A DNA stretch of 64,000 nt. It comes from Geosiphon pyriformis uo1. Its lineage: Eukaryota; Fungi; Glomeromycota. Where the stretch lies: NCBI GenBank assembly GCA_016748015.1, contig JAAOMT010000299.1, positions 719,090-783,089 on the forward strand. Direction: 5' to 3'. The notes under the pieces are model-generated. The model had not been told where the DNA came from. It made no database searches and was given only the letters and a program-made list of their open reading frames with translations. Made by a program: the position numbers and the translations under genes. Below are positions 5,241 to 61,800 of this stretch, piece after piece; the stretch's first letter is position 1, and each line of letters opens with the position of its first letter.

Positions 5241-5299
5241 TCATCTTTTTCAAAGAGATTGAGCTCTGGCAAAATCAAGCTATTTATTGAATAATTTAT

Positions 5300-13262: not shown

Positions 13263-16104
13263 ATAGAATAGATATACCAGTCAATATGGCAGAAGAAGAG
13301 ATTATTGACAAGGAAGAAATTATCTTCATCCATCAACCAATCTCTATTCCACTATATAACCAGTACATGATAGTTATAGAGAGAAAAGTAAAAGATCAAG
13401 TTCAGATTTTTGAGACAGAAGCAATACTTTGTAAATCAAGAGAAATTGGATTAGTCAATTTACACATACCAGCCAAGAACTACAGTCACATCAAAATTTT
13501 CATTTACAACAACATAGAAAATATTATCAAAATACTAGAAAGAACCACTATTGGATACTTAACTACCGAAATTAAAGACCAACTGCCAAACACTATTCCA
13601 GACTTTTCACAACTGTGTGAATATGTAGATATTACATTACAAACAATATACAGACAAGAAGAATATTATTTGCTCCAACCAGAACAATTGAAATAGATGA
13701 ACTTGGGAAATTTAGACCCATTTCAATGAATACAGCTCAAAATGTTACTTAATAACTTCAAAAACATCTTCACCAGTAAAAATGAATTTGGCAGAACTGA
13801 CATAATTCAGCACCAGATCAAGACTAGAAATGCAATGCCAATCAAACAGAGAGCATACAGAATACTACCAGTTAGCCATGAGATCATTTGTCAAGAAATC
13901 AACCAGATGCTTGACAATGGGCTAATTTAGTCATTAATGAGCTCTTGGTTATTACCAGTGGTATTAGTCTGAAAGAAAAATAGAAAGATCTGTTTTTGTG
14001 TGGATTATTGAAAACTGAATGGAATAACTAAAGGTAATAGCTATCTAACTCCAAAGATCCAAGAACTGTTCAATGCTTTTGGAGAAAAGAAATGGTTCTC
14101 GACTTTAGACTTAGATAGTAGTTACTGGCAATTAGCCATGAAGTCAGAAGATAAAGAAAAAACAGCTTTTACAACATAAAAAAAGAATTTTGAATTTGAA
14201 GTTATGCCATTTGGCTTGATGAATGCTCTAGCCACTTTCCAATAACTTATGAAAATTATCTATACTGGACTACTATAGAAATTAGTAGTTATATACTTGG
14301 ATAACACCAATGTGTTTTTAGAAACATTTGATAATTATCTGTATTATCTCCAACAAGTATTTAAAAAACTCAGACAGGCAGAATTGAAACTAAATGCCAA
14401 CAAATACTTCTTTAGAAAAACTGAACTCAAGTTTTTAGAACATATTGTAAACAAAGATGGTATCAAAACGGATCCAGATAAGATTGAGATTGTTAAGAAC
14501 TTTCCAGTACCAAATAATTTCACAGAATTAAGAGCATTCTTGGAATTTGCTGAATACTACTACCACTTTATCAAAGACTTTTCCAAAATAGCTCAATTAC
14601 TATACCAATTCCAAACAAAGAACACCAAATATGAATGGACTGAAACTCAACAAGAAGCTTTTAATACACTAAGAAAAAAGCTTATTCAAGCCCCAGTACT
14701 AATCTATTCAGATTATAGCAAGCCATTCATAATCACAACTGATGCATTGGATTAAGCATTGAGAACAGTACTATTGCAGAGAAAACCAGATGGAAGAGAA
14801 CATCCAGTAGCTTATACCAGCAGAAGCTTAAAGTCCAGCTAAAAAAAACTATTGAACTCCAACACTAAAACACTTAGCTATTTATTGGGCTGTCACCAAA
14901 TGGAAAGAATACTTGAGTCAAAAGTTTAATGTGTACATTAATCACAAAGAATTGACTTCAATCCAGAAGCAAGAATTTGGAGATAATTGTTATGCAAGAT
15001 AGAAAATAGTACTATCATCATATACATTTACAGTACATTATAAAAAGAGAAAAGACAATGGAAATGCCAACAGTTTGTTGTGAATGAGACAAATCTAAAA
15101 ACATTTCAAACCCAAAAATATAACAAAACATGAATATACAAAAATACCAACAACTTTAATATTATATAAATACCCAATTGTTCAAGAAGAAATTATCTCA
15201 AAAGAAACAAAACAACATAAAACAACAATCAAAATATTTTATCAATTACCAAAATATACTTTACCAGAAGAACAAAAGAAATCCAGATCAACTAACCAAA
15301 GTAATTACAGAATCAGAGAAAGAGACAATATTATTCAACATGTACTCAGATCCAACAGCAGGACATTTTTATAAAAAAGCAACCATAGAAAGAACCAGGA
15401 AAAGATACTATTGGTCATCAATGTATCCAGACATCATCTAATATGTTCAAAATTGTAATGCTTATTAAAAAAGAGATGGAACAAAACTCAGCAAACTGTT
15501 AAAACCAATTAAAATAGGACAACCATTCAACTGAATTGGAATTGACTTAGTCAGACTGTTAATAATCACCAGCAGAGACAACAGATAGATCACAGTAGTC
15601 ATAGACTATCTTACTAAATGGCCAGAAACAAAAGCAATTCAAAAAGCAGATGCAGAATTCATTGCCAAATTCATTTATTAAAGATTTGATCTGTTGACAC
15701 AGATGTCCAAAAAAATTATTATTAGATCAAGGAACTCACTTTGTGAATAGAACATTGGCAGAATTAAGTCAAAGATTTGGGATAAAAAAACCATTATTAT
15801 CACCATACCATCCACAAACAAATGGGCTAGTTAAAAAATTTAACAGAACATTGTGTAAAGCCATCACCAAAATCAGCCAAAAAAACCAGAACGAATGGGA
15901 TTTGATTATATTATCAGTATTATTTGCTTATTGGACAATGAAGCAAGACACTACACAAGCAATACCATTCGAGTTAGTATATGAAAGAACAGCAACATTA
16001 CTAGTTGAGATAGAAGTCAAAACATATTCAACAGAACCAATAACAGAAGAGAATTTCCAAAGAACATTGTTAAGAAGAACATATGACTTAATGAAGACAC
16101 AGAA

Positions 16105-16584
16105 AACATTGTGAACAAAATAATCACAAAAGTAAAATTGGCAATAAAAACACAACCAAAAGTCACCCAATATCAAGAGTTGACTATAGATACTTGGAAT
16201 TGGTAGATACAACAATTTCCAAGAAACTTTTGTTACTTTTATTTGGGACAATACTTGAATATTCAAGGCTTGTATACAGATAAAACAAAACAATTATTTG
16301 ACACAACAATACTGCAACAACTGGAACAATTTATGGAGAAAAACAATTTGATCACACAAGCAAGAGCTATTTATTGACTACATACTGGATTTCAAGATTG
16401 ACCAGAAATCTTACTTCATCCAGAAATAAACTTCATTACCATTAACTAAATAGAAAAAATAACCAATGCTTAATTTGGAGAATTACAGAACAAGATAGCA
16501 CAAATAATTCTTAAAAAAGAAGTTCAAAAAATACTCAAAGATGAAGAATTAGAATTAGAAAATCTCAACAGAGCTCAATATTAA
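16105..16584 (+). pseudogene. ORF3 of element A (N-terminus deleted)
   Basis: Frame from 16141: ..CYFYLGQ..QARAIY*LH..ILLHPEINFITIN*IEKITNA*FGEL..NLNRAQY*. Aligns by eye with ORF 50944-51609. Confidence 0.8.
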
Positions 16585-21170: not shown

Positions 21171-23775
21171 ACAGTAAAGAGAACATTTGTGCAAACAATC
21201 AAATTTCTATTTAATTCATCAGAACCAACTATATAAAAGAAATAGAAAAGATTCTGATCACCTCTAAAGAGTTATAAGATTTGAAGAAAAAGAAATTGTG
21301 ATCTATAATATGTACACTAATCTATTAGCTAGACACTTTGGAAAAACAAAAACAATTCAGAAAATCTTAGCTCACTATTATTGGCCTATCTTAAGAAAAA
21401 ACATTGCTGAGTACATCAAAATCTGTGACATCTGTCAAAGAAGAAAAAAACCTAGTCACAAAAAAAATATTTATTCAATCTCTGTTGGTTAATCATTTGA
21501 CAAAATTAGTATAAATGTTATTAGACCTTTAACAATAACTCCTAATAACAATATATATATTATTACAGCCACTGATTATCTTACAAAGTGAGTAGAAACA
21601 AGAGCCATTTCAAACCAAACAACAGTTTTAATAACCAATTTTATTTATAAAGATATTATTTGTTACCATAACTGTTCCAAAAAACTTTTATTTAATAGAA
21701 AAAGAGCTTTTTTTAGTACATTGGTTAAAGAATTTTGTAGAAAAATAGGAATATATTATAAACTTTCTTTTTTTTATTTCTAAACAACCAGTCTAATGGA
21801 ATATTTTAACAAAATTCTATGTAAAACCTTAGCCAAAACCAGTGAAGAAACAAACTTATAAAACAAAGTGCTGTCTTCAGTTTTGTTTACTTATAGAACT
21901 GTAAATTATGATATAATAAGTTATAAACTCTTTTATTTGCTCTATGAACAAATAACAATTCTACTAATAAAAACTAATATTAAGACAATACCTTTTGAAA
22001 AAATCACAATAAGAAATTATAAAAACATTTTGCAAAAAAAACTTAATACTATTCTTAACTTCTTAGTAGAAGCATGAATAATTGTCTTTAAAAAGATAAA
22101 ACAGTTCCAAGAAAAGCTTAAGAAAAAAAGAACTTATAAAATACTTTCCTTAAATATTGGTGACTTATTTTTGGAATATCACTTAGACAAAGACAATATT
22201 TATGATAATAAATTTTCTAGCTGGTGGAAAAGACTCTTTAGTCAACAAAGTTTTGAACAATGGTTTTTATATCTTATAAGATCAATATAAAACAATCTTT
22301 AATAATCATCCTATTTATAATACATAACTCAAGAAATATTACAAATAACTTAATTGGTTGTCAATTATGATAATACCAACCCAAATAATCAGCAAAAATC
22401 AGATATAAATAAATACATTATTCCTAAAACAAAAATATTTTCAATTAACATAAACAATTATTTCCTAAATTAAAATATTCAAAACACTTTCTATACTTTT
22501 CATGAGTATTGAATCAAAAACTATCTAAATGCTACCCTGACCATTGAAAAACAAACTACTATAACTAATAATAGTGGAACACATACTGTTATTAGACCAA
22601 AAAAAACCACTATCAAAAGAAAAAAAATTGGTAGCAAAATAAATAAATATCTGCTAGAAAGCATAACAGCAATAATACTTGTATTTTTCAGTACAATTAA
22701 AAAAACATTCCAAGAAATCTTGCCTATAGACAAAAACTTGTCATATAGAAGGCAATTAGAACTCTATAGTCATCTTGGTAAAATCATAAAAGATATAAAA
22801 TTCATAAAGAAAACAACTTTAAAGATACAGATAGAAATTTTGGGCATTATATTATTAAATGTCTCAAGAGTTTTGATTATTGCTAAAAAAGCCAAAACTT
22901 TTATACAAAGATTTGGTTTCTTGGATACAAAACTTATTTTGCCTTAGGTATTATATATATTATTTACAAAAAACTTCAATAAACTAGTTAGTTTTGAGTT
23001 AGACAAAACTTTTCAAATAAATTATTTAATAAATAGTTTAATTTCACTGGAGCTTAATTTTTTTGGAGAAAATAATGTTATGATTGAAATTTATACTTTT
23101 TATTAGTAATTATATGTATTAGCCATTGATAATATATAATTAGCCACTCTATTTTTAGATAGTAATCATTGACCTAATCCATAATCTAACTATTGACTTA
23201 ATCACTGACCTAGTTATTAATCTGATTATTGACTATTTTTAATAGCTATATAAGCAATGAATCTTTTAGCTGTAAAAAAACATAATCAAAGTAATGAAAT
23301 AAAACCCACTATTAATTACTTTCTTTCATATTGTTTATTTTCTTTTTTCTACCTTTAAGTATTTGAATATCTTAGAATAAAAGATTACTTGTTGGCATTT
23401 ACATATCTTATCTTTTTTTTTTCTTGATTTGTATTGTTAAAATTAGCCTAAGAAACAATTACTTGCTTTTGTAATTCATTAAATAAAAAAATAATTGAAA
23501 AATACAACAATATTTGTTATTAATTTTAAAAATTACTGAGTAAGACATAAAATAATAGCAGCAGTATTATTTTGTTAACAATTATGGACTATTTTTCTAC
23601 TTTTAAATTTTCAGAAAAGATTTGTAACTGTAATTTTTATGAGATTGATCATGTATTTTGAATTCTTACTCATTCAATTTGCTCTTATATTGTAATTTTC
23701 TTTTTAATTATTTTTATTACCCTACAATTTTATTTTTTTTTGCTATTTGTTAACTTGTTACTCTAATTCATAACA
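21171..23775 (+). mobile_element. 3' half of a second family-B element (IN, ORF3, 3' LTR 23076-23775)
   Basis: Integrase zinc finger (H..H..CDIC), ORF3, PPT GGAGAAAATAA, LTR TGTTATG..ATAACA. Inverted relative to 4568-7125. Confidence 0.9.
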
Positions 23776-31160: not shown

Positions 31161-31879
31161 TTGGTTGTCTGTTGTGGTAATACTGACTTAAATGATCAGC
31201 AAAAATCAAGTATAAATAAATGCATCATTTCCAAAACAGAGGTATCTTCAATTGACATAAATAATTATTTTCTGGATCAAAACACCTTCTATACTCTTCA
31301 TGAATATTGGATCAAAAACTATTCAAATGCTACTTTGATCATTGAAAAACAGACCACCATAACTGATAACAGTGAAACACATAATGTTATTAGATTCAAA
31401 AAAACCACCAGAAGAGAAAAAATTGGTAGCAAAATGGATAAATATCTGTTGAAAAGTATAACAGCAGCTATACTCTTACCTTCTAGCACAATTGGAAAAA
31501 CACTCTAAAAAATCTTGTCTATAAACAAAAACTTGTCATATGGAAGGCAATTAGAACTCTATGGTTGTCTTGATAAAATCATAAAGGATATAAAACTAAT
31601 AAAAAAACAACTTCAAAGATACAGACAGAAATTTTGGACATTATATGATTAGATGTTTCAAGAGTCAAAACTCTAATACAAAGATTTGGTCTCTTGAATA
31701 TAAAACTCATTTCATCTCAAATATTATACATCTTATTTACCAAAAATTTCAATAAACTAGTTAGCTTTAAATTAGACAAAACCCTTCAAACAGATTATTT
31801 TATAAATAGTTTAATTTTGCCAGAGCTCAATCTCTTTAGAGAGGATAATATTATGATTAAAACTTACATTTTTTATTAG
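31161..31879 (+). pseudogene. ORF3 of element C, running ~30 nt into the 3' LTR
   Basis: ORF-track pieces 31161-31508 and 31694-31879 are homologous to 5300-5677 and 22720-22947. Confidence 0.78.
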
Positions 31880-42428: not shown

Positions 42429-42435
42429 ATATTAA

Positions 42436-45400
42436 ATCTTTATTGGTTAAAGTATAGAATTTTATAGAATATTTTTACATATATTGAATAAATTGTGAAG
42501 TTTAAAAGTTGTTCTGAGTCTGTAATGAGCATTTATTAGTCTGGTTGTTGTCTTGAATTTATTGTGTATTTGTTTTTATATAGCTTTGAGAATGAGATTA
42601 GTTGCTTTGAATTCTAGTTTCTATTGGTGCAATGTTTTTTTAATTTGAAAATATTAATAATTAAAAATATACTTACTGTTTTTATTAAAACACATTTAAA
42701 GTTTTTGTTGTATTATGACATTCAAAAAAATGTCAATAGGTGTAAACAATAAGTTTTCTTTTAAAGCTTGCTTCAAAAGTTCTGATAATTAACTTTTAGA
42801 ATAACTTCTTGTGTTTCTTCTATAAGAATAATATTTCTGGAAATTATTTACTATTGCAGTTGTAATTCTTTTTTAAGTATATTTAATATAATTTCTATTA
42901 ATTGTTATAAATAAGTCAGAGAGTATTTTTAAAGCTAACATTAATTTTTAGAATATTTGTTAAATGTTTTAAAAAATAAGCATTATAAAGTTAAATAAAA
43001 ATTAAATAAATTTTTATAAAACAAAAAAACAAAAAAAAAATATTTTTGGTATAAGAGTTTTATATATTTTTAATTTGGGTATTTTCTGGTAGTTATTTTA
43101 CTATTTTTGTTTAATGTTTCTATATTATTTTAAAAAAAATACTAATAAAAATTAAATTAAATATTCAGATTTGGTTATTGTTCTATTATAACTATTGGTT
43201 CTAAATTTTGGAGAATATCTTTAAAATTAATTAAAGAAAAATGTATATTAATTTGTGAAATTAGTAATTTAAGATTGTTTCTAAAATGATAATGGTTCAA
43301 TTAATTTTCATATGCAACTTTGGCTAGAACTTTGTTATTAAGCCTTAACTTATATAATCTATTGTCTAAAATTTCGTAAATATAAAATAATCTATTTTAT
43401 TTATGTTCAAATTTTCTATTCCATTGTTTTTTAGTCTTAATTCTATATAAGAAAACTTTGTTTTCAACTTTAAATTTATTAGTAACTAGTAGTAATTTGT
43501 TGTCATGTCATTTTTTTTGTTGGGCTTGAAAATGTTATTACTTATAGAAATTTAGAAATTCTTAATAAGTACATAAAATAGTTAATTAAAAATAAGTATA
43601 ATAAAAAAAGAATTTTAAAATTTTTCTTAAGAAATTGCAAGATTCCAGAAATTTCAGAATTTCTCATAAGAAATTACTAGATTCCAAGAATTCCAGAATT
43701 TCTGGTTAGAAAAATTAAAAGAATTCAAGAAATCTTGTATAACATAAAATATATATATATAGTAAGAGTGTTAAATGCAGAAAAAGTAATTTCTAGAGAA
43801 TTTAAATATAGTTTATATTAATTTAGAACAATACTCCTTCTTTTAAAAGATAGTTTTTTACAACTTGAAATAAAATTATTTCCATATTAATAAAATTATC
43901 TATTATTATTAAATTTATGTTATTATTACTTGATTAAGAATATTAATCACTTTCATCACTATTAACATTTCATGTTAATAAAATCTAATACTTAACTATA
44001 TTAAAACAATAGCTTTTGATTATAGTTATTAACAGGATATTAATTTCTTGTTTTTTTATTTTTTTTATTTTATTTTCTTTATTATTTACTAATTGATTAA
44101 AAAAATTAAGTACTGAATTATTAATGTCAAAAAAAACTGGTAAAAGACTCATGAAATAAGAATAAAAACTCAAAAATTGAGAATAGTCTATCAGAAGAAA
44201 CTAGCCATTAAGCCAAGAAAAAAATTCATGAAATAAGCTTTTAGAATAGTACTAAAACAATCATTAAATCTCTGTTTATTATACAAAAGACTTAATTAAA
44301 ACTTTCAGATCATAAAAACCTTTAAAAATAATCAATTATACAAACTATTGAACACCAAATTATGGGTTTGTTATTTGTATCAACACTCCAAATAATTATC
44401 TGTAATATTTAGTGCTTTCTGTAAGATATAATGTAACAAAAAACCATTACTAACATTAACCAAAAATTAGAGAAATACTTAGCTAGCAATTAAGCAATTT
44501 ATTAGCTTTCACAATGTTATAACAATTAAAAAAACTCCAATTATTTCCAAAATCAATCACATTTATTATCAACAAATTAACTATGGTAACAAAAAATGCA
44601 TAATTGTTACTATTGTAATAAACAAAACTATTTAAAAAGCAAATTGCCATTCTAGATTTAATAACTAATGATTAAAAAATCAATCTCAAAACTCTGATTG
44701 CAAATTTCAAACTCCAAATTACATCTTAAATTAAAAACAATATCAATACCAGTCTTATTACACCCCAATAACACAACAACCAATATATGTATCTTTAGTT
44801 TATTAGACTCTAATACCAGTAATCTATCAACTACAGCCACAAGTAATTTATTAACTATAGTTATAAATAATTTATTAAACTCAACTAATTCAAACACCAT
44901 CCCAAAATTTAGTTTAAATGATAACCAAAAATCAAAGGCCAAGAATTATAAACACTCAACAAGATTAACAATTAGCAATAATAAGGCACCAATCAATCTC
45001 CAGTTTATTAAATCAGCTATTAGAATTATGTCAATAGAGTTTAAAAAGTGAGTACACCCAAAACCCAAATTTTTAAAACTATTTAAGTTTCTTGATTACT
45101 CCAAAAAACAACTTATCTAACAACTTAGAATCCAACTTAATACCACTCACTAACAATATTCTATTAGTAATAGTCATTGAAAATAAGTTACTTGTAGTCA
45201 TCTTCTTTTTTAAATTAGAAGAATCAGTAATAACACCTTTATTTAGTAGAGCTATTTTCGATGCCAAACTAATTACTGTAATATATACAGATGCCAAAGT
45301 TTATGGCCAATTTATCAAGCTAATTCTTAATAATAAGTTAGCAGACAACATTATTACATAACAACTTATGGACCAATTAGGTTGCCAAGTTGATTGTACT

Positions 45401-47463: not shown

Positions 47464-48353
47464 TATTACAAATAATTATTTGGAGTATAGAAACAAATAA
47501 CAAATCTGTAACTTGGTGCTCAATAACTGGTAGTGTTGATAGATCTGAAGATTTTTATATCTGAAGATTTTGGTTAAGTTTTTTGTATAATAGACAGAGA
47601 TTTAATAGTAATATCTTTTGGTAATGTTTTTAATGTTTTTTTAACTCTTGAGTTGATGTACTTTGTTGTCTGTTACTTTTCAGAATATCTATATTCTGTC
47701 AATTTCTTTCTTAGCTTGGTGGCTGATATCTTCTAATAAGCTATCCTCAATTATGAGTGTGTATTTTTATTCCTGGGTTATTTACCAGTACTATATCCTA
47801 ACATCAGTACTCTATGCATTAATCCTTTTAATCAGTTAGTAAAACAACAAAAATAAAAAATATATATAAAAATAAATAAATAAAAAAAATAAATAAAAAA
47901 AAATAAAAAAAAAATTAGTATCTTATTAATAGCCATAATTAAGAGCTATTATTCTCATGTGATTAAATATAATTGTTATTAACATAAAGTATTAATAAAT
48001 GAAAAAGTGATTAAATTCTTAAACAAATAATAGCAACATGGATTGAATGATAATAGGTATGTTTTATTTTGATATTTTACTAATAAATTCACTTTGGTGG
48101 ATATTAACTATCTATAAAATAAAAGTTAATTAATAAATAAGAAAGAAAATGTTAAATTAGAACTGGATTCTGTTTTTTCTTACTTTTAATGCTATTTCTA
48201 TATATATATAGTTAGTGTTATATAAGATTTCTGGAATTCTGTAATTTTTTTAGAGAAATTCTGGAATTTTTCTGTTACTATGCTTATTTCTAATTGGCTA
48301 TTTTTTTAACTATGATATTCCTAATTTTTATAAGGAACAATTTTTTCTTCTTT

Positions 48354-48996
48354 TTAATATTAAGCTTTATTGAAATCTTCTAAACTTTCTAGATTTTCTT
48401 TTTGGATTAATTCTATAACTTTTTTCTCCAGAATTGCTTTTGTAATTTTGGTCTGTAATTTTTTAAATTGGGTATTAATTAATTTTTCCAATTGATTAAT
48501 TGTTACAATATTTATTCTCAGATATAATAATATTTCAAAATCTTATTTATAGTTAGTAAATAACTTTTATATATGTAAATAAATGGTTTTTTTTAACAAT
48601 TTGTTTAATTTGTTGTTAAATTGGATTAAATTTTTTTTTTGTTTTGTTAGTGTATAAGTTTTTGATACTTAATTGTTGTTCCAACTGATAGTAACAAAAG
48701 TTTTTTGGATTTTGTTGTATCTATTGGTTCCAATTTTTTAAAATTCATTCTTCTTTTGGTATTGGTATTTTTAGATCTTCTAATGTCTTTTTTATTTTTC
48801 TCATTATCTTATCTACAATGTTTTCAGAAGTATGGTGTTTAGAATATTGCTCTTTGGTTTGGTTTTTTTACATTATTTTCTTATCCTTGTATTAAATTAT
48901 GTGTTTATTAATGGTGATTTCTAAGCTTGATTCTTGTTGTTGAATTAGTTGTAATAGTTATTGTACAAGTAAGTAGATGTTGTCAGTGATTTCCAT
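48354..48996 (-). pseudogene. ORF3 of element H (full span, decayed)
   Basis: ATG at 48996: MEITDNIYLLVQ*LLQLIQQQESSLEITINKHII. Ends at the same ..Y-TAA before the PPT as in element A. Confidence 0.75.
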
Positions 48997-50943
48997 TTTT
49001 TTTTGTTGTTTTTATTGCACATGTTGGTTTCTTATATACTGTTATAGTAGATCAATTCGACATGTTTGATGATAATTGGTTCTAAATCTCATAAAATCTT
49101 ATCTGGTTTGACTAGTATTCTTTGTACTTCCAGTTATGAAATATTATTGATAAATAATAATACTATATTGTGGTATGGTTTCAGTTGATTTTTATGTGTT
49201 GTTTTAGCTAAAATTTTGTTGTTCTATCTTAGTTTATAAGCTTTATTTTCTAGAATTTTTTTAATGTGAAATAGTCTGTTCTATTTGTGATCGAATTTTT
49301 CACTCCATTGTTTTTCTATTTTGGTATGATGTAAAAATACTTTGTCTCCAATTCTAAATTCAACTGGTTTATTTGGTAATTGGTTATCATGTTATTTTTT
49401 TTGTTTTTTTTGTGACTTTTGAATATTATTAGCTGCTTTTTATCTTTTGTTTTTCAACATTTTTATTAGTTTGTATATTCTTCCTAGCAATGTTTTTTGA
49501 AAGTTGGCTTTTGTTATTGGTTCTGTTGAATATGTGTTAATGTCTATCTTAACTAATAATGTTGCTGTTTTATCATAAAAAAGTTTAAATAATGTTGCTT
49601 GTGTGGTATCTTGTTTCATTGTTTGATAAGCAAATAATACTAATAGTATAAACAAATATCATTTGTTCTGGTTTTCCTGGCTGATTTTTGCTATTGTTTA
49701 CACAATATTCTGTTAAACCTTTTCATTAAGTTATTTGTTTGTGAATGATATAATGATAATAATGGTCTTTTGATTTCAAATCTTTGACTTAATTCTCTTA
49801 ATATTCTGTTCACAAAATAGGTTCTTTGATTTAATAATAATTTTTTTAGATATCTATATTGATAAATTAAATTTTGGTGAACAATTTGGCTATGAATTTT
49901 GTATTTGCTCTTTGTATTGCTTTTGCTTCTGGCTATTTTGTAAGATAATTCATAGCTACTGCTATGTAATAGTTGTCTTTACTGGTTATTGTTAATGGTG
50001 TTACCGAAGGTTTTTGGTCTCTTTTCTTAATGGTTGTTGATGCCTGTTTGCTGTAAATTCACGTTTTCTGGATGTGGTTGAACCTCCAGTACTGAATTTA
50101 TCTTCAAATTATTTCCTATAATTTGAACTGCTGGACTTATAAGTGGAATGGCCAATTCCATGCCAGTTACTTTATGTAGTTACATTGTAGTAAATGTCAA
50201 CTCTTTCCCAGGAATTGCTTGTCTAGAAACTCATTAAAAATGTGTAGTTACTTTGCTGTAAAAGTCAACTCTTTTACAGGAATCTCATCTGTAGGCTACT
50301 CTAATGATTATAATAAGAAAATAAAATAAAAGTAAAAGAAAAGTAAAAGAAATTGAATTCTGTCAAGTAAAACGTTTTCTATCTAGACCTGGAGTCACTA
50401 ACGATTTACTGAAATTGGTAGCTAATCAATTTTAAAACATTAGTTGGGTTTTGGGAATTTTCAGATGTAATAATTAAGAAGTTGATTTTTGAATTATTTA
50501 ATATTTATTTCGTTTTTGTGTATTGAATTGATTCAATTTAAGATATCTAAAAGTAAGATATATTTTTTCGAAGAGAGAAGCTCTTTTTTTATACAACTTG
50601 TTATAGTACTAGTCTGTGAACTTGAATTATTTTTTTTACTATGATTTTGATGAACTAAAGGTACATTTCGGCAAACTTACAAGTTATTTCTACGAACTAT
50701 TGAATATTTCAGTGAACTATCAATTATTTCAGCAAATTTACACAAATTTTGGCAAACTTTTGAATATTAACTGGTTCAGGGTATTGTGTAATTTGATTGT
50801 TCTAATTTCTATAGTATAAATTATGTTATTAATTGATTAATAATATTTGATAATTTGATTGAATAATAAGTGATGATTTGAAATGATAATATATGCTAAT
50901 TAATGATAGAAATTATAAGGGTAATTTCATGTTAATTAATATC

Positions 50944-51651
50944 TCAAATTTCGGTTGGTAACATAACCTTCTCCTCAAGACTGAGCTCCATCAAAGTCCA
51001 AGTACTGTCTGTATGTTCCAGATAGTAATCCAAAATTACTAAAGAAATTTGGTCTGAAAATTGTTGAAATTTCAGTTCTGTGAGTTTTCCAATGTATTGA
51101 ATCTTCAGTGGTTGTAAAATTGGGTTTTGTAGGACATTTTCACAGGTGTGAAATAGGTCATAAAGTCTAAGAGCTGCTCTAAGTTTGTAGCAACTGTTTG
51201 TTAGTCCAGCCATTGTCTTAAATTTGTTGTAAAGTTGTTTTTGAATGGCTTCTTTTGTGAAGTTGGCTGTTGTGAGTTCTAGTTTTTGTTCATACAATGT
51301 TTTTTCAATGTAAAAATATCTATAAATTAGAAGGTATTCATTGTTTTCTTTATTAAGACACTGTTGAAGTTTTTGTTGAATTGTGATATTTGGTGAAATG
51401 TCAATAGGTAAGAGCAACAAATTTTCTCTCAAGGCAAGCTTCAAGAATTCTGGTAGGTGAATTCCAGAATAACTTTTAGTGTTTTTTTTATAAGGGTAAT
51501 AATTTCGTGATTTTGGAGATAAGGTTGTGGCTGTTTCTGTTTGAGTATAATTAATATGTTTTTCTGTAATAGTAATAGATAATTCAAGTATTGTTTTTAA
51601 AGCTAACATTAGTTTCTGAAATAATTGTTAAATGTTTTGTGGAATAGTCAT
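50944..51651 (-). pseudogene. ORF3 of element G; 221 aa still open, probable original ATG at 51651
   Basis: MTIPQNI*QLFQKL is in frame with ORF 50944-51609, separated by a single TAA (likely from CAA). The ORF crosses the PPT and ends 20 nt inside the 3' LTR. Confidence 0.85.
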
Positions 51652-54600
51652 TATAGTGAATTAAAAAGAGAATTTTAAGTGAGATTTATTTTTAGTATGT
51701 GGGTTTTTATATTATTTTTGTTATTTCTCAGGCTGTTTTGTTGTTATTTTTTTTTTTTGTAAAATTGTTTTCAATTTTCTATTTAAGGGAATAACTATGG
51801 TGAATTTTTAATTTAAGTGTTCAAGTAGGGAGGTTGTTCAATGATAACTATTGGTTCCAAGTTTTGGGGAATATCTTTGGAATTAACTAAAAAGAAATGT
51901 GTACCAATCTGTGAAATTGATGGTTCAGGATATGTTCTGAAGTAATAATGTTTCAATTGATCTCTATGTGCAACTTTTGCTAAGATTTTGTTATCAAGTC
52001 TTAACTTGTATGATCCATTTCCTAAGATTTCGTGAATAAAGAATAGTTCATCCCATTTATGTTCAAATTTTCCACTCCACTGTTTTTCAGCTTTAGTTCT
52101 ATGTAGGAGAACTTTATTTCCAACTTTAAATTCATTGGTAATTAGTGGCAGCTTGTTGTCATGCCTCTCTTTTTGTTGAGTTTGTAAGTGTTCTATATGG
52201 GTTGCTGCTATTTGTCATTTTCTTTCTAGTGTGCTAAGAAGTGTATAAGCTTTTCTTTGTAATATCTCTTGGAAGTTGTTTTTGGTAATTGGTTGGACTG
52301 GATATGTTTTCACTGTGAAGTTAATGAGTAACATTGTTGTTCTTCCATAAGTGAGGTCAAATGGTGTGTGTTTCATTGTATCTTGTTTGAGTGTTCTATA
52401 GGCCAGTAACACTGATGGAATAAAGATATCCTATTTTTGCCCAAAATCTGTTAAGATCTTGGCTAGTAATTCACACAATGTTCTGTTGAAACATTCCACT
52501 AATCCATTTGTCTGTGGATAATAGGGTGAAGATAAAGGTCTTTTGACATTAAATCATTCACAAATTTCTTGTATCAGGTTGTTCACAAAATGTGTTCCCT
52601 GATTGAATAAAAGTTCAATTGGGCATCCATGTCTACAAATAATGTCTTCATAGATAAAATTTGCTACTGATTTTGCATCTGTTCATTGAATAGCTCTGGC
52701 TTCAGGCCATTTGGTAAGATAATCTATTGCTACTGCTATGTATTGGTTTTCTTGTGTGGTAATAGGTAGTGGTCTGACTAAATTAATACCAACTCGGTCA
52801 AAAGGTTGTTCAACTTTGATTGGATTTAAAGGTTTAGTAAGGCATGTTCCTTCTCTTCTTTAACAACTATCACAAGATTCAACTATTGATGTATGTCTCT
52901 TCTCATTCGGGACCAAAAATAGTATTCTAGTGTTCTTTGGATGGTGCTGTTTTTTCTAAAGTGTATTGATAAAGGATCTGAGTACATGTTGTATAATATA
53001 GTCTCTTTTTTGTGTTTTTGTATTAATCTGAGTAGTTTGTCTGGATTTTTGAAATTTTGATGATAAATAATATTGTTGTGTAGAAAATATTGTCTGGCTT
53101 GTTGTTGTAATTGATGGTTTTCATCTGAAGACCAATCTGTTGGGATTGTTAATGTCTTCAAATATTGTTTGAGATTGTTGTAGTTTTTTGAATTCATTGT
53201 TTGTTGGTTGTTAGATTGGTTAAGTTGAATGTTAATTTGTGTTTTTTAATCTTGTCTCATTCTGAAGAGACAATCAACATTGGTGTGGAGTTTTCTTGGT
53301 TTGTGATGTACTATATATTGGTAGTTTGCTAAAAATCCTGTTCATCTGGTTTGTTTTGCATTTAACTTTGTGTTTTTGTTTTGTAACTATTTGAGTCCAA
53401 TATTATCAGTAATAATATTGAATTCTTTAGGTTTGAGGTAAAGGTCAAAGTGGTATAAGACCCATATTACTGCTGCAGTTTTTAATTCTGTTGCTGGGTA
53501 GTTTTTCTCTGCTAGTTTTAATGTTCTACTTGCATAAGCAATTACTCATTCATTGCTATTGTTATCTAACTGTGATAAGATGGCACCAAAGACAGTATAA
53601 GAGGCATCTGTGGCTAATCGGAATTGGTTGCTAAAGTCTGGGTAGGCAAGAATTGGAGCTGTGGTGAACTTTTCTTTAAGTATTTTGAAGGTGTTTTGGT
53701 GTTCTTCCGTCCATTTGTATTTGGTGTTTTTAATGTTGAGCTGGTTAAGGGGTTTTGCTATTTCTGAAAATCCTTTGATGAATTTCCAATAATAAGAAGC
53801 TAATCCAACAAATTCTCTTAGTTCTGTGGTATTTTGTAGAACTTTGAAATTCTTAACAGCACTGATTTTTCTTGGGTCTGGTTTGACTCCTTCTCTACTA
53901 ACTATGTGACCAAGAAAGACCAAGCTTGTTTTTCCAAAATGACATTTTTCAATGTTTAATTTTAATTCTGCTTTTTGTAATCGTTGAAAAACTTCTCACA
54001 GATAAATTAAATAAAGTTCAAAAGATGGGGAATAAATGTTAATGTCATCAGCATATACAACATCTATGAGTCTTTGGAATGTTGCTGGTGTATTGCATAA
54101 TCCAAAGAGCATTACATTGAATTAGTAGTTTTCTCCTTGTGTTGTAAATGCTGTTTTGGGGCAATCCTTGGGATCTATGGCAACTTGCCAGTATCTGCTT
54201 TCTAAATCTAATGTTGAAAAGTATTTGGATTTTCCAAGTGCATCTAACATATCATCAATTTGGGGAAGAGGGTAGGCATCTTCAATTGTAACATTGTTCA
54301 GTTGTCGATAATCAACACAAAATCAGATTTTTCTATTTTTTTTTTTAACAAGTACTATTGGTGAAGTCCATGGGCTCATTGATAGTTAAATGAGCCCATT
54401 GTTAAGCATTCTTTGAACTTCTTCTCAAATAAATTGGTGGCTTTCTGGGACAACTTGGTATGCTTGTTGTCACCTAGGTTTAGCATCTCCTATGTAGATT
54501 TGATGTTAGACCAAATCAGTTCTTCCTAAATCGTTATTGTTTTTGGCGAATATGTTTGCATGTTCTGTGATTAACTCCTTAAGCTGGTTCTGTTGTTGGG

Positions 54601-55053
54601 GCTCTAGTTGTTCCATGTTGATTCGAGATAATTTTTCAACAACAATGTGATAGTTTTCAGAACTGGGTTTTGGGTTTATTCTGGGGAGAAAATGTCCAAT
54701 AATTTCCAAAAAGTTAAAAACTGTTTGGGGTAATTCTTGTTGAAAGATTTTGTTATGAATAATTTCAATTTCCAAATTATTTAGTAAAATGATGGGGTGA
54801 TGATTGGGGTTGTAAAAAGTAACTCGGACTTTCTTCATTCTTTTTGGAAGATAAATGTTTGGGATTGAGATGCCATTTTTTGTGCAAATTTGTTTACTGG
54901 CTTCGAAGATTTGTTGAGTAGTGGTGAGTTTTCTACAAATATAAATTTTGTGATGTTCTCCAAAGAGTAAAATGGTTATTGGTTGTGGAAGTCTGAGAAT
55001 CTGGTGAGATTCATTCTGTGTATTAAGGCTATATTAACTGGAACTATGAATTG

Positions 55054-55446
55054 TCCAGTTGAACCAAAATCTTGGGTTCCTCTCTCACTTTTCCCTAATT
55101 GTTCTCTTTGATTGACTAATTGCAAATCTGAAATGTTGATTAAGGGTAAATAAATAGCTTGGGCAATTTTTTCAGCATGTTCAATCTTGAATGATTTGTC
55201 AGTTTCATTTTGAAGCATTACTGTAATATCTCCAGTGTATCTAGCATCAATAATTCCTCCTCTTATGTTGATTCCTTTGCTTGCTAGAAAAGATTGGGAG
55301 GCAATTTGCACCATCATTCCTGATGGGATTTCAAGGGCAATTTTTAGATTAATTCTTGTAAGGGATTTTGGTTGAAGAATGAGGGTATCTTTTTCTGGAT
55401 ATCTTAGATCATATCCAGTGTTAATTTCGTGAGCTTTCTCAGGCTT
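55054..55446 (-). pseudogene. dUTPase domain within pol of element G
   Basis: KPEKAHEINTGYDLRY..ASQSFLASKGINIRGGIIDARYTGDI..EKIAQAI..SERGTQDFGSTG: all five trimeric dUTPase motifs in order. Confidence 0.95.
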
Positions 55447-58400
55447 AATTTCTTGTCCTTTATTGTTGAAGTATTTGAGTGTTATGGCCGGTTAGTTTTC
55501 AGTGAGATAAATAAGAGTTATTGAGACTTCTTTATACTGTATTTCAAATTTGATTTCATGCTGGTCATCTTTAATTGGTAATAGAATGCTAAGGGCATAG
55601 CATTCAGGACACCACTGTTTATCACAAGGCATAATGCATTCTTCACATAGCCTAATGTTCATTTGTTCTAATCATTGAATTTGAGCTTCTTGGGTTGGAT
55701 AAGTGTGACTTGCAATTTGGTGGTAGACTTCTACTTCATCTTTGTAATCAAATCCAGCTAATTCTATGGTGTATTCAATGTATTCTGCTTCTTTCATTTA
55801 ACGGACATCTTCTTTGGTAGCTCTATTAACTAATGCCATTGCTAGGTTGAAAATCATCTCAGCATTATGGGGGTAGTAATAAAGTTTGTTGAGAACACTG
55901 TTGTATGCTGCATCAAAGAGTGTTCCTCTTTTGACTTTTTCTGAAATTAATAAAACATATTGGCAGGTTTGATCACAGACTCCTTCTCTCATTGCTACAT
56001 CAATCCAATTATATTCTTCTGATAGCATATCTCCACAAGTCAAACAAAGGGTGTTGTCCTATTTTCCACTTCTTTTTATTAGATGGCCCTATTGTCCTCT
56101 GTGGCAAGCCTTGCAGTAATAACAAGTATGATTTTCATATTCTTTTTCAGATGAAATGCAGACTCTCATTGATAAAAGTTTTTTGTTACAATCTTTGCAT
56201 TTAAGTGGAATGTAGGGTGATTGTTTTCGTGGTTCTGGTGTAGAATATCTAACTTTCTTCCATCTTTTGAATTCTTCAAAGATTTTTTGTTCTGTTTCCT
56301 CAGCCCAATTGGATGTTGATCCAAGAGCCATGTAGGTTTCAATAAGTGGCATTTTTTTCTCTTCTTCAAATTCAAGTACTGGGGCTTTTTCTGATCATTT
56401 GTTGAAAGTTCCATACATAGCAGATACTATGGTGTGTTGTCCTTGATATGAGATTTTTAATTCCTGGATTTCCCAATCTAAATTTGCATTGGCCTTAAGA
56501 AGCCAATTATTTTCAATGAGAGCTTAGTATTGGGGTGCATCCATGACTAGGACTTTAACTGGAATAGTGATTCCATCAATAGTGAATGGAAAATTATCAA
56601 TTTCTCTTACTGGTGTCTTCTTTATACCATCTGCCATAATGATGACAGTTTGAGCTGGTTTGTCAACAGTTTGTTGAAGCTGTTGTATTAATTGGTAGGT
56701 AATAATACTTCCAGCAGATCCACTGTCTAATATTAAGTGAATTGGTTTTCCTTCTACTTCAGCTTTAGTATACATTACTGTAATAGCTTTTTGTTTGTTA
56801 ACTGCTACATTGCTGAGTAGAGATGGTGATTCATTGGCTTTAAATTCGAATGGAAAGATGTTTAAAAAATTGGCATTTCAGGCAATTCTGGCTGGTGGAA
56901 TAGTATTACTAAAAGGATTTTGTCTTGGTGCTACAGCTTTATCTTCAAAAAGTGCAGTTTGCTGAAAATTTGATTCCTCTGGTATTGTAAGATAACTGGG
57001 TTGAATGTGATAGTATGTGGACCTATGTTGATTCGAATTTTGAGTGGTTAATTGGTTGTTGAAATTTAATCTGTTGTTGTTTGTTGAAAAACGGTTTTGT
57101 AGTGTAAATTGATTATGTTGAATCAATCTTCTAGCTGGCACTTGATATTGTGATGTGGATGGTTGTTGATACTGTTGTTAGATTGGTTGTAGAGCAGGTT
57201 AATAATAGTGGTTTGGATATTGTGGCCTTGGTAAATATTGAGCTAGTGGTAGTAGATAATATGATTGTTGTGGTTGGGAATAATATTAATTATTTCTCTG
57301 TTGTTGGTCTTATTGCAATTTTCTACAATTGCGTTTTTAGTGTCCTGGAATTCCACAATAATGACAATTTTGGATTTGGTTGTTGGATAATAATCCAAAG
57401 TTGTTTTGATTGCATCGTTGTGGGGGTTGGTATCTTTGTGGTTGTTGTGATTGCTGTGGCTGCTGTTGTTGTTATTGGTTGGTAAAGTAGTTTTCAACTT
57501 TCTTGGTTAATTGGTCAATCTTTTCTTCAGCTGCTGAGCTGGTTTCTCCAATAGCCAGGTTAACAAGTTTGGTATGGTTGGCTTCTTCTATGGTCATTTC
57601 ATAGTTTTTTGCCTGTTAAATAGCAGTGGTTAAATTTTCTGGTGCATGTGGGCAAACTTTCTTGATAAGTTTGTCTTTTAGTCTAGCAATGAATTGATCC
57701 AAGATTTGTGCATTGGAGTAGTATTTATTGGTTTCCAATTGGTGAATTCTTCTAAGCAGTTTGTTGAATTTCCCAAGATAGGTTATAACTGATTCATTTG
57801 GTTCTTGTTTGATATTTTAGAACCAATTTTGAAGAGTAATGGAAGTGTTATTGTCAGTAAACTGTTCTAGAAAAGCAGTTTTGAATGCTTCCTAGTCTTC
57901 TGGTGGGGCTTCCAAGTTTTCAAACCATTTGCCAACCATTTCTTGTAAGAAATATGGAATTGCTTTTAACATTCTGGCAGCATTCCAACCATTTGCATCT
58001 CCTGCTTTTGAGACTTTGTCAAGCCATTCTTGAGGACTGGTTTCACTGTCTTTTTCTGTAAACTCAGGGATTTTTGCGATATATGTGGAGACCATTTCTT
58101 CTTTGTTTTCTGAGTCTTCTGTTTCTTGTTCTGATTCAGTCTCTTCACTTCAATTTTCTGCTAAGTAGTCAATAAAGTTTGTGCTGGTTAATATTGGTTC
58201 CTGTTGTTGAATAGGGCTTTTGGGTGACTGAAAATCTTCTATTCTTAAAAACCAAATAAGTAGTGAGCTTGGTGTTTGCGGTTGAGCAAGTAAAGCTGGA
58301 AATGGTGTGATTAAGAATGATAATTTAAAGCTGGTTTCTTGTTCTGGAGTTTGTAAATGTTTGGCAGTGGTTTTAGGAGTATTGGGAGTAGTTCTGAGTT

Positions 58401-58802
58401 TTTGTTTCCTTTTTCTTTTTCCTTCTTCTATTTCCAATTCAAAACTAAGAGAAAATTTCTGTTCTACTGGATAATTTTCTTTACAATACTGAATGATATT
58501 GAAGTTGAGTTCTTGGAAGTATGTTTCAAGTGTTTGACTGTTAAAATTCTGAGTGTTTAAACAAGAGTGATGTACTAAGCTTTCATATAAGTTGTGTCTA
58601 ACTTCTGAAATGTTGTAGTCTCCAAGAAGATAATTGTTGATGCAATTTTTAATGTACTGGTAAAGTGTTTTCTTGAATGTTTCAATTTTGTCTGGAATGT
58701 TAAATCTCTGCTTGCAGTGGGTGTAGATTGACTGATAATACTCTAGAGTCCTTAAATCTGTTTGAGTCGCCACTTTTGAAGTTGTTGTCACTGTGTTATT
58801 TT

Positions 58803-58817
58803 CGTGGAAGAGCACTA
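58803..58817 (-). promoter_or_regulatory. Primer-binding site of element G, T(A)GTGCTCTTCCACG
   Basis: Starts 2 nt inside the 5' LTR boundary; TGG has decayed to TAG. Confidence 0.7.
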
Positions 58818-61800
58818 AATATTACTGGAGGTTTTTGGTCTCTTTTTTTAATGGTTGTTGATGCTTGTTTGCTGTAAATTCACGTTTTCTGGATGTGGTT
58901 GAACCTCTAGTACTGAATTTATCTTCAAATTATTTCCTATAATTTGAACTGCTGGGCTTATAAGTGGAATAACCAATTCCGTGCTAGTTACTTTATGTAA
59001 TTACATTGTAGTAAATGTCAACTCTTTCCCAGGAATTGCTCGTCTGGAAGCTTACTAAAAATGTGTAGTTACTTTGCTGTGAAAGTCAACTTTTCTACAG
59101 GAATCTCATCTGTAGACTACCCTAATGATTATAATAAGAAAATAAAATAAAAGTAAAAGAAAAGTAAAAGAAATTGAATTCTGTCAAGGGAAACGTTTTC
59201 TATCCAGGCCTGGAGTCACTAATGGTTTACTGAAATTGGTAGCTAATCAATTTCAAAATGTTAGTTGGGTTTTGGGAATTTTCAGGTGCAATAATTAAGA
59301 AGTTGATTTTTGAATTATTTGATATTTATTTCGTTTTTGTGTATTAAATTAATTCAATTTAAGATATCTAAAGGTAAGATATATTTTCTCAAAGAGAGAA
59401 GCTCTTCTTTTATACAACTTGTTGTAGTACTAGTCTGTGAACTTGAACTATTTTCTTTATTATGATTTCGACAAACTAAAGGTACATTTCAGCAAACTTA
59501 CAAGTTATTTCTATGAACTATTGAATATTTCAGTGAACTATTAATTATTTCGGCAAATTTACACAAATTTCAGCAAACTTTTGAATATTGACTGGTTCAG
59601 GGTATTGTGTAATTTGATTGTCCTAATTTCTATAGTACAAATCATGTTATTAATTGATTGGTGATATTTGATAATTTGATTGAATAATAAGTAATGATTT
59701 GAAATAATAATATATGTTAATTAATGATAGGAATTATAAGGGTAATTTCATGTTAATTAATATCTCAAATTTCAGTTGGTAATAATGGTCTAACTAAGTT
59801 AATTCTGATTCAATTAAATAGTTGTTTCACTTTAATTGGTCTTGTTTTTTTCCTTTTCTGACAAGCATTACAATTTTGAACATATTGAATAATATCTGGA
59901 TATATTAATGACCAATAGTATTTTTTTTTGTTCTTTTTATGGTTGCTTCTTTATGAAAATATTCTGCTGTTGAATCTGAGTGCATGTTAAATAGTATTGT
60001 TTTTTTTTTGGTTTTATAATAACTCTGAATGGCTGATTTAGATCTTTTCTATTTTTCTAATATAATATATTTTGGTAAATAATAAAGTATTTTAATTGTT
60101 GTTTTATGTTGTTTTATTTTTTTTAAGATAATTTTTTCTTAAACTGTTAAATATTAATATAATATTGGAGTTGTTAATATTTTTGTGTTTATTTTTTGTT
60201 ATATTTTTGGATTAAAATATTTTTAGAATTATCTTATTCATAACAAACCATTAATATTTCTATTTTTTTTCTTTTTTTATAATGTATAATATAATTAAAT
60301 AGTGATAATTTTATTTTTTATCTTGTATAACTGGATTAATGTTAATTCTTTGTAATTAGTATACACATCAAACTTTTGACTCAAATATTCTTTCTATTTG
60401 ATGACAACCCAATAGATAGCTAAGTGTTCTAATGTTGGGATTCCATTGTTTTTTTTGGCTCAACTTAAACTTTAGCTGGCATATCCTACTGAATATTTTT
60501 GTCTATTTATTTCTTTTTGTAACAATACAGCTTTTAATGCTTGACTGGATGTATTGGTAATAATGATAAATAGTTTGCTGTAATCTGAATAGATCAATAT
60601 TGATGCTTGAATAAACTTTCTTCTTAAGATGTTAAAAGCTGCTTGTTGAATTTCAGTTCATTTATATTTTACATTCTTTGCTTAAAGCTGGTGAAGTGGT
60701 TGAGCCAGTTTGGAAAAGTTTTGGATAAAATGGCAATAGTATCTAACAAATTCCAAGAATGTTTTTAATTCTATAAGATTTGTTAATACTAAAAAGTTTT
60801 TGATAATTTTAATCTTATTTGGATCCATTTTGATGCCATTTTTGCTTATGACATATTCCAAAAACTTGAGTTCAGATTTTCCAAAGAAATACTTTGTAGC
60901 ATTTAACTTTAGTCTGGCTTTTTTTAGTTTTTTAAATACTTGTTAGAGATGGTAGAGATAATTGTCAAACGTTTTGAAAAACATGTTGGTATTATCCAAG
61001 TATACCACTACTGATTTCCATAGTAGTCTGATATAAATAATTTCTATAAGCTATTAAAAAATGGTTGGCACATTTATTAAGCCAAATGGCATAACATTAA
61101 ATTCAAAGTTCTTTTCTCTGATTGTAAACATTGTTTTTTCTTTGTTAGCTGAATTTATGGCTACTTGCCAGTAATCATTGTCTAAATCCAATGTTGAAAA
61201 CCATTTCTTTCTTCCAAATACATTAAATAGTTTTTGGATTTATGAAATTGGATAGCTGTCTCCACAAGTCACACTGTTGAGTTTTTTATAATCTACACAA
61301 AAGCAGATCTTTTCATTCTTTTTTTGGACTAGTACTACTGATAATAACTATGGACTCATTTATAATTGAATTAATTTGTTGTTCAACATTCTGTTGATTT
61401 CTTGTTAAATAATTTCATGGCTTGCTAGTAATATTCAGTATGCTTTTTGTTTGATTGGCATAGCATCTCCAGTTTTGATCTAATGCTAAATAATGTTAGT
61501 TCTGCCAAATTTATTTTCACTGGCAAATATATTGGTAAAATTGTTGAGAAGCATTTTAAATTGCATATATTAAAGTGGGTCTATGTTTCTCAAGTTCATT
61601 TGATCTAATTGTTCTGGTTGAAGCAAATAACATTTTTCTCATCTGTATATAGTTTATAATGTTATATTCACATATTTGCACAATAGTGGAAAATCTGAAA
61701 TAGTGTTTGGCAGTTGGTTTTCAACTTCAATGCTTAAGTATCTAATGGTAATTTCACTTGGTATTTCAATAATCTTTTCAGTTATATTATAAATAGAAAT

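What the first reader, a model, noticed from the sequence alone, without database searches (positions are those of the whole stretch)
50944..51651. Conserved non-env third ORF shared by three divergent Gypsy families (best candidate for an undescribed system)
Seen: every family with an interior has a ~215-240 codon sense ORF between integrase and the 3' LTR, ending at or across the PPT (seven copies in the window). By-eye alignment: N-terminus G MTIPQNI*QLFQKL..LSITITEKHI, H MEITDNIYLLVQ*L..LEITINKHI, B N*NIQNTFYTF..ATLTIEKQ. Core: G RYFYIEK..AALRLYDLF..VLQNPILQPLKIQYIGKLTELKFQQF; A CYFYLGQ..QARAIY*LH..ILLHPEINFITIN*IEKITNA*FGEL; B YGCLGE..AKKAKTLI..QILYILFTKNFNKL. No signal peptide, TM helix or furin site is visible, so it is not env-like. 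In G, 221 codons remain open. Inference: an ancient, selected accessory protein (helical, possibly nucleic-acid binding; e.g. transactivator, silencing suppressor or movement factor in coenocytic hyphae). With the dUTPase and Cys-rich domain it defines a complex, retrovirus-like Gypsy lineage. The B match is weaker than A-G.
Basis: partly seen in the sequence, partly recalled or inferred. Interest (0 to 1): 0.85.

Follow-up and report, generated by a model that had tools for sequence, protein, structure and literature searches.

The report
Fungal retrotransposon's unexplained third gene
Gypsy-type jumping genes in this window, likely from a Geosiphon-type soil fungus, carry an extra conserved gene behind a separately encoded integrase; it is not an envelope gene, and its predicted helical product likely binds DNA to help the element regulate itself, which is untested.

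Summary
The extra ORF is real. It lies between integrase and the 3' LTR in seven decayed copies here, none intact. Full-length relatives are annotated as hypothetical proteins in Geosiphon pyriformis. An intact 230-aa relative sits in the same slot of a Gypsy element in metagenome locus L001 (33% identity, third codon positions saturated), so it has been kept by selection. The G and A/H versions are homologous (hhalign 92.6%, E 4.6e-7). B is only borderline (shuffle p about 0.01-0.03), and B lacks the dUTPase and Cys-rich domain. No transmembrane or furin signal was found, so it is not env. A confident model (pLDDT 81) shows a small alpha-beta-beta N-terminal module, a basic linker and a helical core. 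[quoted passage not shown] Integrase is also a separate ORF, behind a conserved stop and a G-poor spacer; the scan noted a separate integrase before on other DNA. Best reading: a non-enzymatic DNA-binding accessory protein of a three-cistron Gypsy lineage. Non-env extra ORFs are a known category; this family was not found in my searches.

The parts
50944..51651 (-). ORF3 of element G; decayed copy (stop at codon 8, 51628-51630; ends 4 codons short of the 239-aa relatives)
   Evidence: 82% identical to G9A89_004199
49999..59784 (-). Whole element G: LTR, gag-PR-Cys-rich-dUTPase-RT-RNase H, separate integrase, ORF3, LTR; 4-bp target duplication ATGG; inserted in element H
   Evidence: joined form without the element in run X1
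58820..59784 (-). 5' LTR of G, followed by a PBS-like motif
   Evidence: 93% identical to the 3' LTR
49999..50963 (-). 3' LTR of G; its first 20 nt are overlapped by ORF3
50964..50989 (-). GGAGCTCA motif plus polypurine tract, shared (with decay) by the families and L001; read as the C-terminal residues of ORF3 in G, B and L001
51652..51815 (-). Integrase stop and G-poor (4% G), ATG-free spacer before ORF3
51813..53197 (-). Integrase of G as a separate ORF with its own ATG (decayed, frameshifted)
53198..53248 (-). RNase H stop codon (53246-53248) and 48-nt G-free spacer before the integrase ATG
   Evidence: other copies in run X1 keep a stop (mostly TAG) while the spacer varies
42429..42983 (-). 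ORF3 of a second G-type copy (G2), 186 codons, 3' part lost
16099..16584 (+). ORF3 of element A, 5' part deleted; ends just before the PPT
48345..48996 (-). ORF3 of element H (A-type), frameshifted
5213..5842 (-). ORF3 slot of B copy 1 (homology to G/A borderline)
22450..23103 (+). ORF3 slot of B copy 2
31257..31876 (+). ORF3 slot of B copy 3, frameshifted

Best explanation
ORF3 is a conserved, non-envelope third gene of a Gypsy retrotransposon lineage whose integrase is also a separate ORF, and its predicted soluble, helical product likely binds the element's own DNA through a helix-turn-helix-like core to regulate or protect the element. Shown: position, independent ATG and stop, conservation across G, A/H, further Geosiphon families and two metagenome proteins, no membrane segment, a stop between RNase H and integrase. 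Predicted: an N-terminal helix plus beta-hairpin, a disordered basic linker, a helical core (about residues 80-205) and an acidic tail. Inferred and untested: expression from a subgenomic RNA or by ribosome restart, nuclear import through the basic linker, DNA binding, and the target (LTR promoter or integration complex).
For: Selection: G vs L001 ORF3 33% identical over 222 codons, nucleotide identity by codon position 0.47/0.58/0.44, third position as saturated as RT-RH (0.45). Synonymous excess over a context-preserving permutation: G/G2 p 0.005-0.01, A/H p 0.02-0.03, 1 of 3 B pairs p 0.005; 1 of 9 LTR control frames at p 0.049. Full-length relatives of family-typical length: 23 of 120 listed G hits are 239 aa, 17 of 85 B hits 218 aa. 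Same slot in L001. Model of P0307 on 72 sequences: pLDDT 81, core blocks 85-97. No catalytic set among the 23 columns shared by at least 6 of 7 family groups. The most basic 20-mer starts at residue 29-52 in 7 of 7 representatives, B included. DNA-binding leads: DUF1016_N is the Pfam family hit by most G members (9 of 58, best E 0.015); among the top 50 of 48,161 chains are Spo0J (Z 4.2, rmsd 5.2, 91 aligned, model 78-207), KorB DNA-binding domain (Z 3.7, rmsd 4.3, 91) and ParB-parS (Z 3.2, rmsd 3.1, 59); DUF1016_N and ParB-HTH profiles match each other (Prob 88, E 3e-6), so the two leads name one superfamily.
Against: No lead is significant. VIA Z is at most 4.6 and inside the range the tool calls a common arrangement; Foldseek gave 0 matches at E<=0.001 in PDB and BFVD; no ParB chain is in the top 50 for the low-confidence G model. 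The core profile against DUF1016_N (E 0.04) and ParB-HTH (E 0.36) is matched by 5 and 6 of 40 block-shuffled controls. DUF1016_N hits only 1 of 24 members of the diverse alignment, 0 of 30 B members and is not among the 25 families shown for A. Two of the family representatives are acidic overall (pI 5.4, 5.9), and the acidic tail is partly dictated by the purine tract. Two of three B pairs show no synonymous excess.
Confidence: 0.42

Rival explanations
1. ORF3 is a translation helper: like caulimovirus P6/TAV, the last ORF would let ribosomes restart at the separately encoded integrase on the long RNA.
For: Integrase follows RNase H after a stop and a short G-poor spacer in G, A, H, both B junctions examined and L001 (22-66 nt, not always in frame). 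The stop is kept across copies. TAV does this job in caulimoviruses (PMC5902531, passages). ORF3 and the split integrase occur together in every element where both regions survive.
Against: No sequence or fold match to TAV appeared. Restart can be driven by RNA signals alone. Co-occurrence may be shared ancestry.
Confidence: 0.15
2. ORF3 suppresses host silencing (small-RNA or methylation based) by binding RNA or a host protein rather than DNA.
For: AM fungi target transposons with DNA methylation and small RNAs (bioRxiv 2021.03.30.436303, passages). ORF3 evolves faster than pol (33% vs 55-59%), as conflict proteins do. The influenza NS1 RNA-binding domain appears among weak hits for the poor G model (Z 5.3).
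Against: That hit rests on a pLDDT-46 model and is absent for the confident model. The window's copies are heavily C-to-T decayed, so any protection was temporary. No direct evidence.
Confidence: 0.17
3. ORF3 is an integrase or particle cofactor (chaperone, nuclear import or target-site tether) acting by protein contact.
For: It sits right behind a stand-alone integrase, has a basic NLS-like linker and no catalytic residues.
Against: No binding data; spacing alone is weak evidence.
Confidence: 0.15
4. ORF3 is a degenerate env or a movement protein.
For: It occupies the env position.
Against: No 19-residue window reaches hydropathy 1.8 in 64 of 64 G, 17 of 17 B and 33 of 33 A proteins tested; no R-x-K/R-R site in 9 of 9 representatives; 0-3 Cys; the model is a small helical domain.
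Confidence: 0.04
5. The ORF is an unselected passenger, open only because of recent copying.
For: All seven copies here are broken; naive omega is no lower than in LTR controls; 2 of 3 B pairs look neutral.
Against: Full-length, start-to-stop conservation at 25-37% identity across at least six families and two sources.
Confidence: 0.04

Closest known systems
Additional ORFs between pol and the 3' LTR in plant and fungal Ty3/Gypsy elements (Athila/Bagy2 env-like; antisense ORFs of Grande, RIRE2, Retand, Boty; PMC7264820, main text read)
   Same: Family-wide extra ORF in the same slot, conserved, function unknown; a nuclear regulatory role has been proposed for the antisense ones.
   Different: This ORF is sense yet has no transmembrane segment; it crosses the PPT into the LTR in G, B and L001; no similarity to those proteins appeared in Pfam scans.
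dUTPase-bearing bdelloid LTR retrotransposons with non-env ORF3 (Juno, Vesta, TelKA; PMC5408684, passages)
   Same: dUTPase in pol and a non-env ORF3, some of 210-230 aa.
   Different: Their ORF3s are DEDDy exonucleases, GDSL esterases, coiled-coil or transmembrane proteins; this one has no catalytic set and no membrane segment.
Fungal Gypsy elements with dUTPase between PR and RT or an 'additional ORF of unknown function' (PosPlaTy3-5, Tuber and Phanerochaete elements; PMC2864245 section 5)
   Same: dUTPase at the same place in G and A/H; an extra ORF is noted in that paper's figure legend.
   Different: No chromodomain hit here; integrase is a separate ORF. I could not see the figure or supplements, so I cannot say whether their extra ORF is related.
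ParB/KorB-type helix-turn-helix domains, including DUF1016_N (YhcG)
   Same: Helical core with a similar order of helices; weak structural and Pfam leads.
   Different: Not significant by profile or fold; no ParB CTPase or nuclease domain; longer second helix.
Caulimovirus P6/TAV (PMC5902531, passages) and foamy-virus Tas/Bel1 (recalled, no call)
   Same: Last ORF before the 3' end of a polycistronic reverse-transcribing element, with a regulatory job.
   Different: No sequence or fold match; analogy only.

Membership tests
Ty3/Gypsy LTR retrotransposon (host element G) | Direct LTRs, PBS, PPT and target duplication | tested here: met
   LTRs 93% identical, PBS-like motif, PPT, 4-bp duplication ATGG
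Ty3/Gypsy LTR retrotransposon (host element G) | Domain order PR-RT-RNase H-integrase | tested here: met
   Pfam hits and translation
Ty3/Gypsy LTR retrotransposon (host element G) | Integrase is part of the Pol polyprotein | tested here: not met
   Stop, spacer and own start in G, A, B and L001; stop kept across copies
Ty3/Gypsy LTR retrotransposon (host element G) | RT placed in a named Gypsy clade by phylogeny | not tested
   No reference RT set was fetched
Env / env-like ORF | Transmembrane anchor | tested here: not met
   Max 19-mer hydropathy below 1.8 in 114 of 114 proteins tested
Env / env-like ORF | Furin-type cleavage site | tested here: not met
   0 of 9 representatives
Env / env-like ORF | Signal peptide | tested here: inconclusive
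   Only a crude N-terminal hydropathy check (0.8-2.1); no predictor available
ParB/KorB-type HTH (HTH_ParB, DUF1016_N) | Significant profile match | tested here: inconclusive
   Pfam best E 0.015, below cut-off; hhalign E 0.04 and 0.36, reached by 5-6 of 40 shuffles
ParB/KorB-type HTH (HTH_ParB, DUF1016_N) | Structural match over the domain | tested here: inconclusive
   Spo0J Z 4.2 rmsd 5.2 over 91; KorB Z 3.7 rmsd 4.3 over 91; tied with unrelated bundles
ParB/KorB-type HTH (HTH_ParB, DUF1016_N) | Binds DNA | not testable with these tools
   Needs a binding assay
Enzymatic ORF3 (DEDDy exonuclease, GDSL esterase) | Conserved catalytic residues and fold | tested here: not met
   No conserved acidic or Ser-His set; helical model; no such Pfam hit
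This ORF3 family (G/A/H/L001), for the B protein | Significant similarity to G/A | tested here: inconclusive
   hhalign E 0.06-0.58; 1.4-3.2% of 1020 shuffles reach the median B score; pairwise Z -0.2 to 3.5 against 7.7-22.7 between other families

The most novel reading that the evidence does not exclude
A three-cistron Gypsy lineage of early-diverging soil fungi makes integrase outside the polyprotein and carries its own ParB/KorB-type DNA-binding regulator, taken from prokaryotic mobile elements, that acts on the LTR: a fungal counterpart of complex-retrovirus transactivators and a possible driver of the LTR burst that fills about 41% of the Geosiphon genome.
Probability: 0.25. Interest if true: 0.8.

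Novelty: new variant of a known kind. Interest (0 to 1): 0.52.

Why it matters
LTR elements cover 41.2% of the G. pyriformis genome (PMC11952901, passage). A dedicated accessory protein would be a testable handle on how such elements expand in a fungal group with methylation and small-RNA defence. It adds a non-env, non-enzymatic ORF3 type and, with the stand-alone integrase, an unusual gene-expression problem. It also explains several hundred 'hypothetical proteins' in the Geosiphon annotation as retrotransposon genes.

Tried and rejected
No whole genome was held. The ESM Atlas gave no answer for any protein tried. The complex predictor was not available, so no dimer test was made. No RNA holder listed; expression and splicing are untested. 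NG86 omega of 0.3-0.47 was rejected as evidence because LTR pairs give 0.27-0.86. The fold from the G-only alignment was poor (pLDDT 46). Foldseek: 0 matches at E<=0.001; second-look VIA best Z 3.9. The FtsQ hits (32 of 72 members, best E 6.7e-5; E 0.19) were rejected: one profile, near-identical members, and FtsQ is beta-rich (recalled) while the model is helical. phrog_23683 (30 of 72, best E 1.4e-4) is unnamed and covers about 50 residues. No match in phages or viral contigs. Read-through of the RNase H stop was rejected: spacers are out of frame in A and hold further stops in B. A shared splice acceptor before the integrase ATG was rejected: the G, A, H and L001 spacers contain no G. The sigma-70 scan does not apply to fungi. 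The shared C-terminal residues come from the DNA motif and PPT, so the last 22 residues were dropped in the pairwise test and in one of the two profile tests. Literature searches listed no description of this ORF.

Full report
Setting. The window is AT-rich and is a stack of nested LTR elements. No whole genome was held. All 120 listed relatives of the ORF (205 of 470 candidates at E<=0.001) are Geosiphon pyriformis hypothetical proteins, the best at 82%, so the source is likely that fungus or a close relative (inference).

Observation. It belongs to element G (49999-59784; LTRs 93% identical; duplication ATGG). It starts 164 nt behind the integrase stop and crosses the PPT into the 3' LTR. 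Seven ORF3 slots are present and none is intact; A is 5'-deleted and G2 ends after 186 codons. Relatives of family-typical length exist: 23 of 120 listed G hits are 239 aa, and 17 of 85 B hits are 218 aa. All 85 B hits (of 309 candidates) and all 73 A hits (of 106) are also Geosiphon proteins.

Homology. G and A/H are homologous: hhalign Prob 92.6, E 4.6e-7, 26% identity over 183 columns. A profile of G found 35 proteins among 1.84 billion representatives. I looked up 9 of them: 7 are Geosiphon, including two further divergent families, and 2 are unnamed metagenome proteins of 234 and 230 aa. Four more were already known Geosiphon hits and 22 were not looked up. Pairwise shuffle Z between these families is 7.7-22.7, and 57.8 for the two G subfamilies. 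B is borderline. hhalign is not significant; 1.4-3.2% of 1020 shuffles reach the median B score against the pooled profile; pairwise Z runs from -0.2 to 3.5. The B alignment is colinear over the first 120 residues, and B shares slot, length and the basic linker. B is also the most distant family in RT and integrase (39-46%). I put B's membership at about 70% (judgement). B has no dUTPase and no match to the G Cys-rich domain. The range is probably underestimated, because the one profile search used G sequences only; I recall similar hypothetical proteins in other Glomeromycota, which is untested.

Context outside this genome. Locus L001 encodes the 230-aa relative intact, 319 nt behind a Gypsy integrase and across the same DNA motif and PPT into an LTR. 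Its host is not known.

Selection. Naive omega (0.3-0.47) means nothing here, since LTR pairs give 0.27-0.86. A permutation that keeps the mutation spectrum gives a synonymous excess for G/G2 (54 of 154 differences; p 0.0045-0.01), A/H (40 of 137; p 0.02-0.03) and 1 of 3 B pairs; 1 of 9 LTR control frames reached p 0.049; no correction for multiple tests was made. The deep comparison is stronger: G vs L001 ORF3 is 33% identical with codon-position identity 0.47/0.58/0.44, against 55% and 0.65/0.74/0.45 for RT-RH (protein-guided alignment favours position 2 somewhat).

Not env. No 19-mer reaches hydropathy 1.8 in 114 of 114 proteins; there is no furin site in 9 of 9. The signal-peptide check was crude.

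Structure. The G-only model was poor (pLDDT 46). The L001 protein folded on 72 sequences gave pLDDT 81 and pTM 0.66: helix plus beta-hairpin (7-38), a disordered basic linker, then a helical core and a long C-terminal helix. The 23 columns shared by at least 6 of 7 family groups are mostly hydrophobic or Gly, with one Lys, Asn and Arg and no catalytic set. Foldseek found nothing at E<=0.001. VIA gave no Z of 5 or more among 48,161 chains, but its top 50 include Spo0J, KorB and ParB DNA-binding domains, two of them spanning the whole core, and Raf1, whose N-domain I recall as a related fold. DUF1016_N is the Pfam family hit by most G members (9 of 58, best E 0.015), and as a control DUF1016_N and ParB-HTH match each other (E 3e-6). 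Direct profile tests of the core against either are not significant (E 0.04, 0.36; 5-6 of 40 shuffles as good). The ParB-type assignment is therefore a lead only.

Split integrase. In G, A, H, both B junctions examined and L001, RNase H ends in a stop followed by a short spacer and the integrase start (ATG in L001, G, A and one B copy, decayed in the others). A further A-type junction is too decayed to place the stop. In run X1 most copies read TAG at this place, no variant at the ATG was listed at the 5% threshold, and the spacer is variable. Read-through is excluded by out-of-frame and multi-stop spacers. The element thus has three cistrons. Earlier scan notes (e1-7415671, e1-7415188) describe a separate integrase in other genomes with overlapping stop and start; here the junction is a spacer, not an overlap. 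I saw the split before reading those notes.

Mechanism. Shown: a selected, soluble, non-env third gene. Predicted: a non-enzymatic helical protein with a basic linker. Inferred: made from a subgenomic RNA or by restart, imported to the nucleus, binding the element's DNA to boost or shield it (0.42). Rivals: silencing suppressor (0.17), translation helper for integrase (0.15), integrase or particle cofactor (0.15), env or passenger (0.04 each).

Known versus new. Extra ORFs in this slot are described in plants and Botrytis (PMC7264820, parts 1-2 of 3, the whole main text), in bdelloids (PMC5408684, passages) and in fungal Gypsy elements with dUTPase (PMC2864245, passages and section 5). PMC11952901, PMC3248453, PMC4738411, PMC5902531 and bioRxiv 2021.03.30.436303 were seen as passages only. 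Ten searches listed no description of this ORF family or of a separate integrase in these fungi. Figures, supplements (none read), Repbase/GyDB entries and subscription papers on the Geosiphon genome were not seen and may bear on novelty.

Verdict. A real and apparently undescribed non-env ORF3 family in a three-cistron fungal Gypsy lineage; function not shown. New variant of a known kind; interest 0.52.

Noticed in passing
window 53198-53248 (G), about 15090-15130 (A), about 28905-28980 and 7200-7270 (B); L001 772-798: Integrase is a separate ORF behind the RNase H stop and a 24-66 nt G-poor spacer in all three families and in L001; the stop is kept across copies.
   Followed up: yes
   Followed up: partly
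window 8855, 17867, 24383(-), 41284(-), 44359(-), 47513, 58819(-): PBS-like motif beginning TGGTG(C/T)TC, decayed in G, at several LTR ends, suggesting one primer tRNA for these families.
   Followed up: no
window 50981-50989 and the matching sites in A, B and L001: A GGAGCTCA motif just upstream of the PPT is shared although ORF3 reads it in different frames (A vs G/B/L001), so it is likely a cis signal.
   Followed up: partly
window 55560-56394 (G); 11988-12595, 62687-63334, 37295-37936: A Cys-rich region of about 280 residues between protease and dUTPase in G and A-type elements with no convincing Pfam match; absent from B, which has a shorter, different Cys cluster at about 27200-27600.
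   Followed up: no
window 58153-58821 (G) and 24629-25216 (B): Gag begins with a family-specific N-terminal extension of about 200 residues with no Pfam match; G and B versions do not match each other.
   Followed up: no
P0308, P0309, P0281, P0283 and others: Many Geosiphon gene models fuse ORF3 pieces to unrelated transposon exons; they look like annotation artefacts, not host genes.
   Followed up: no
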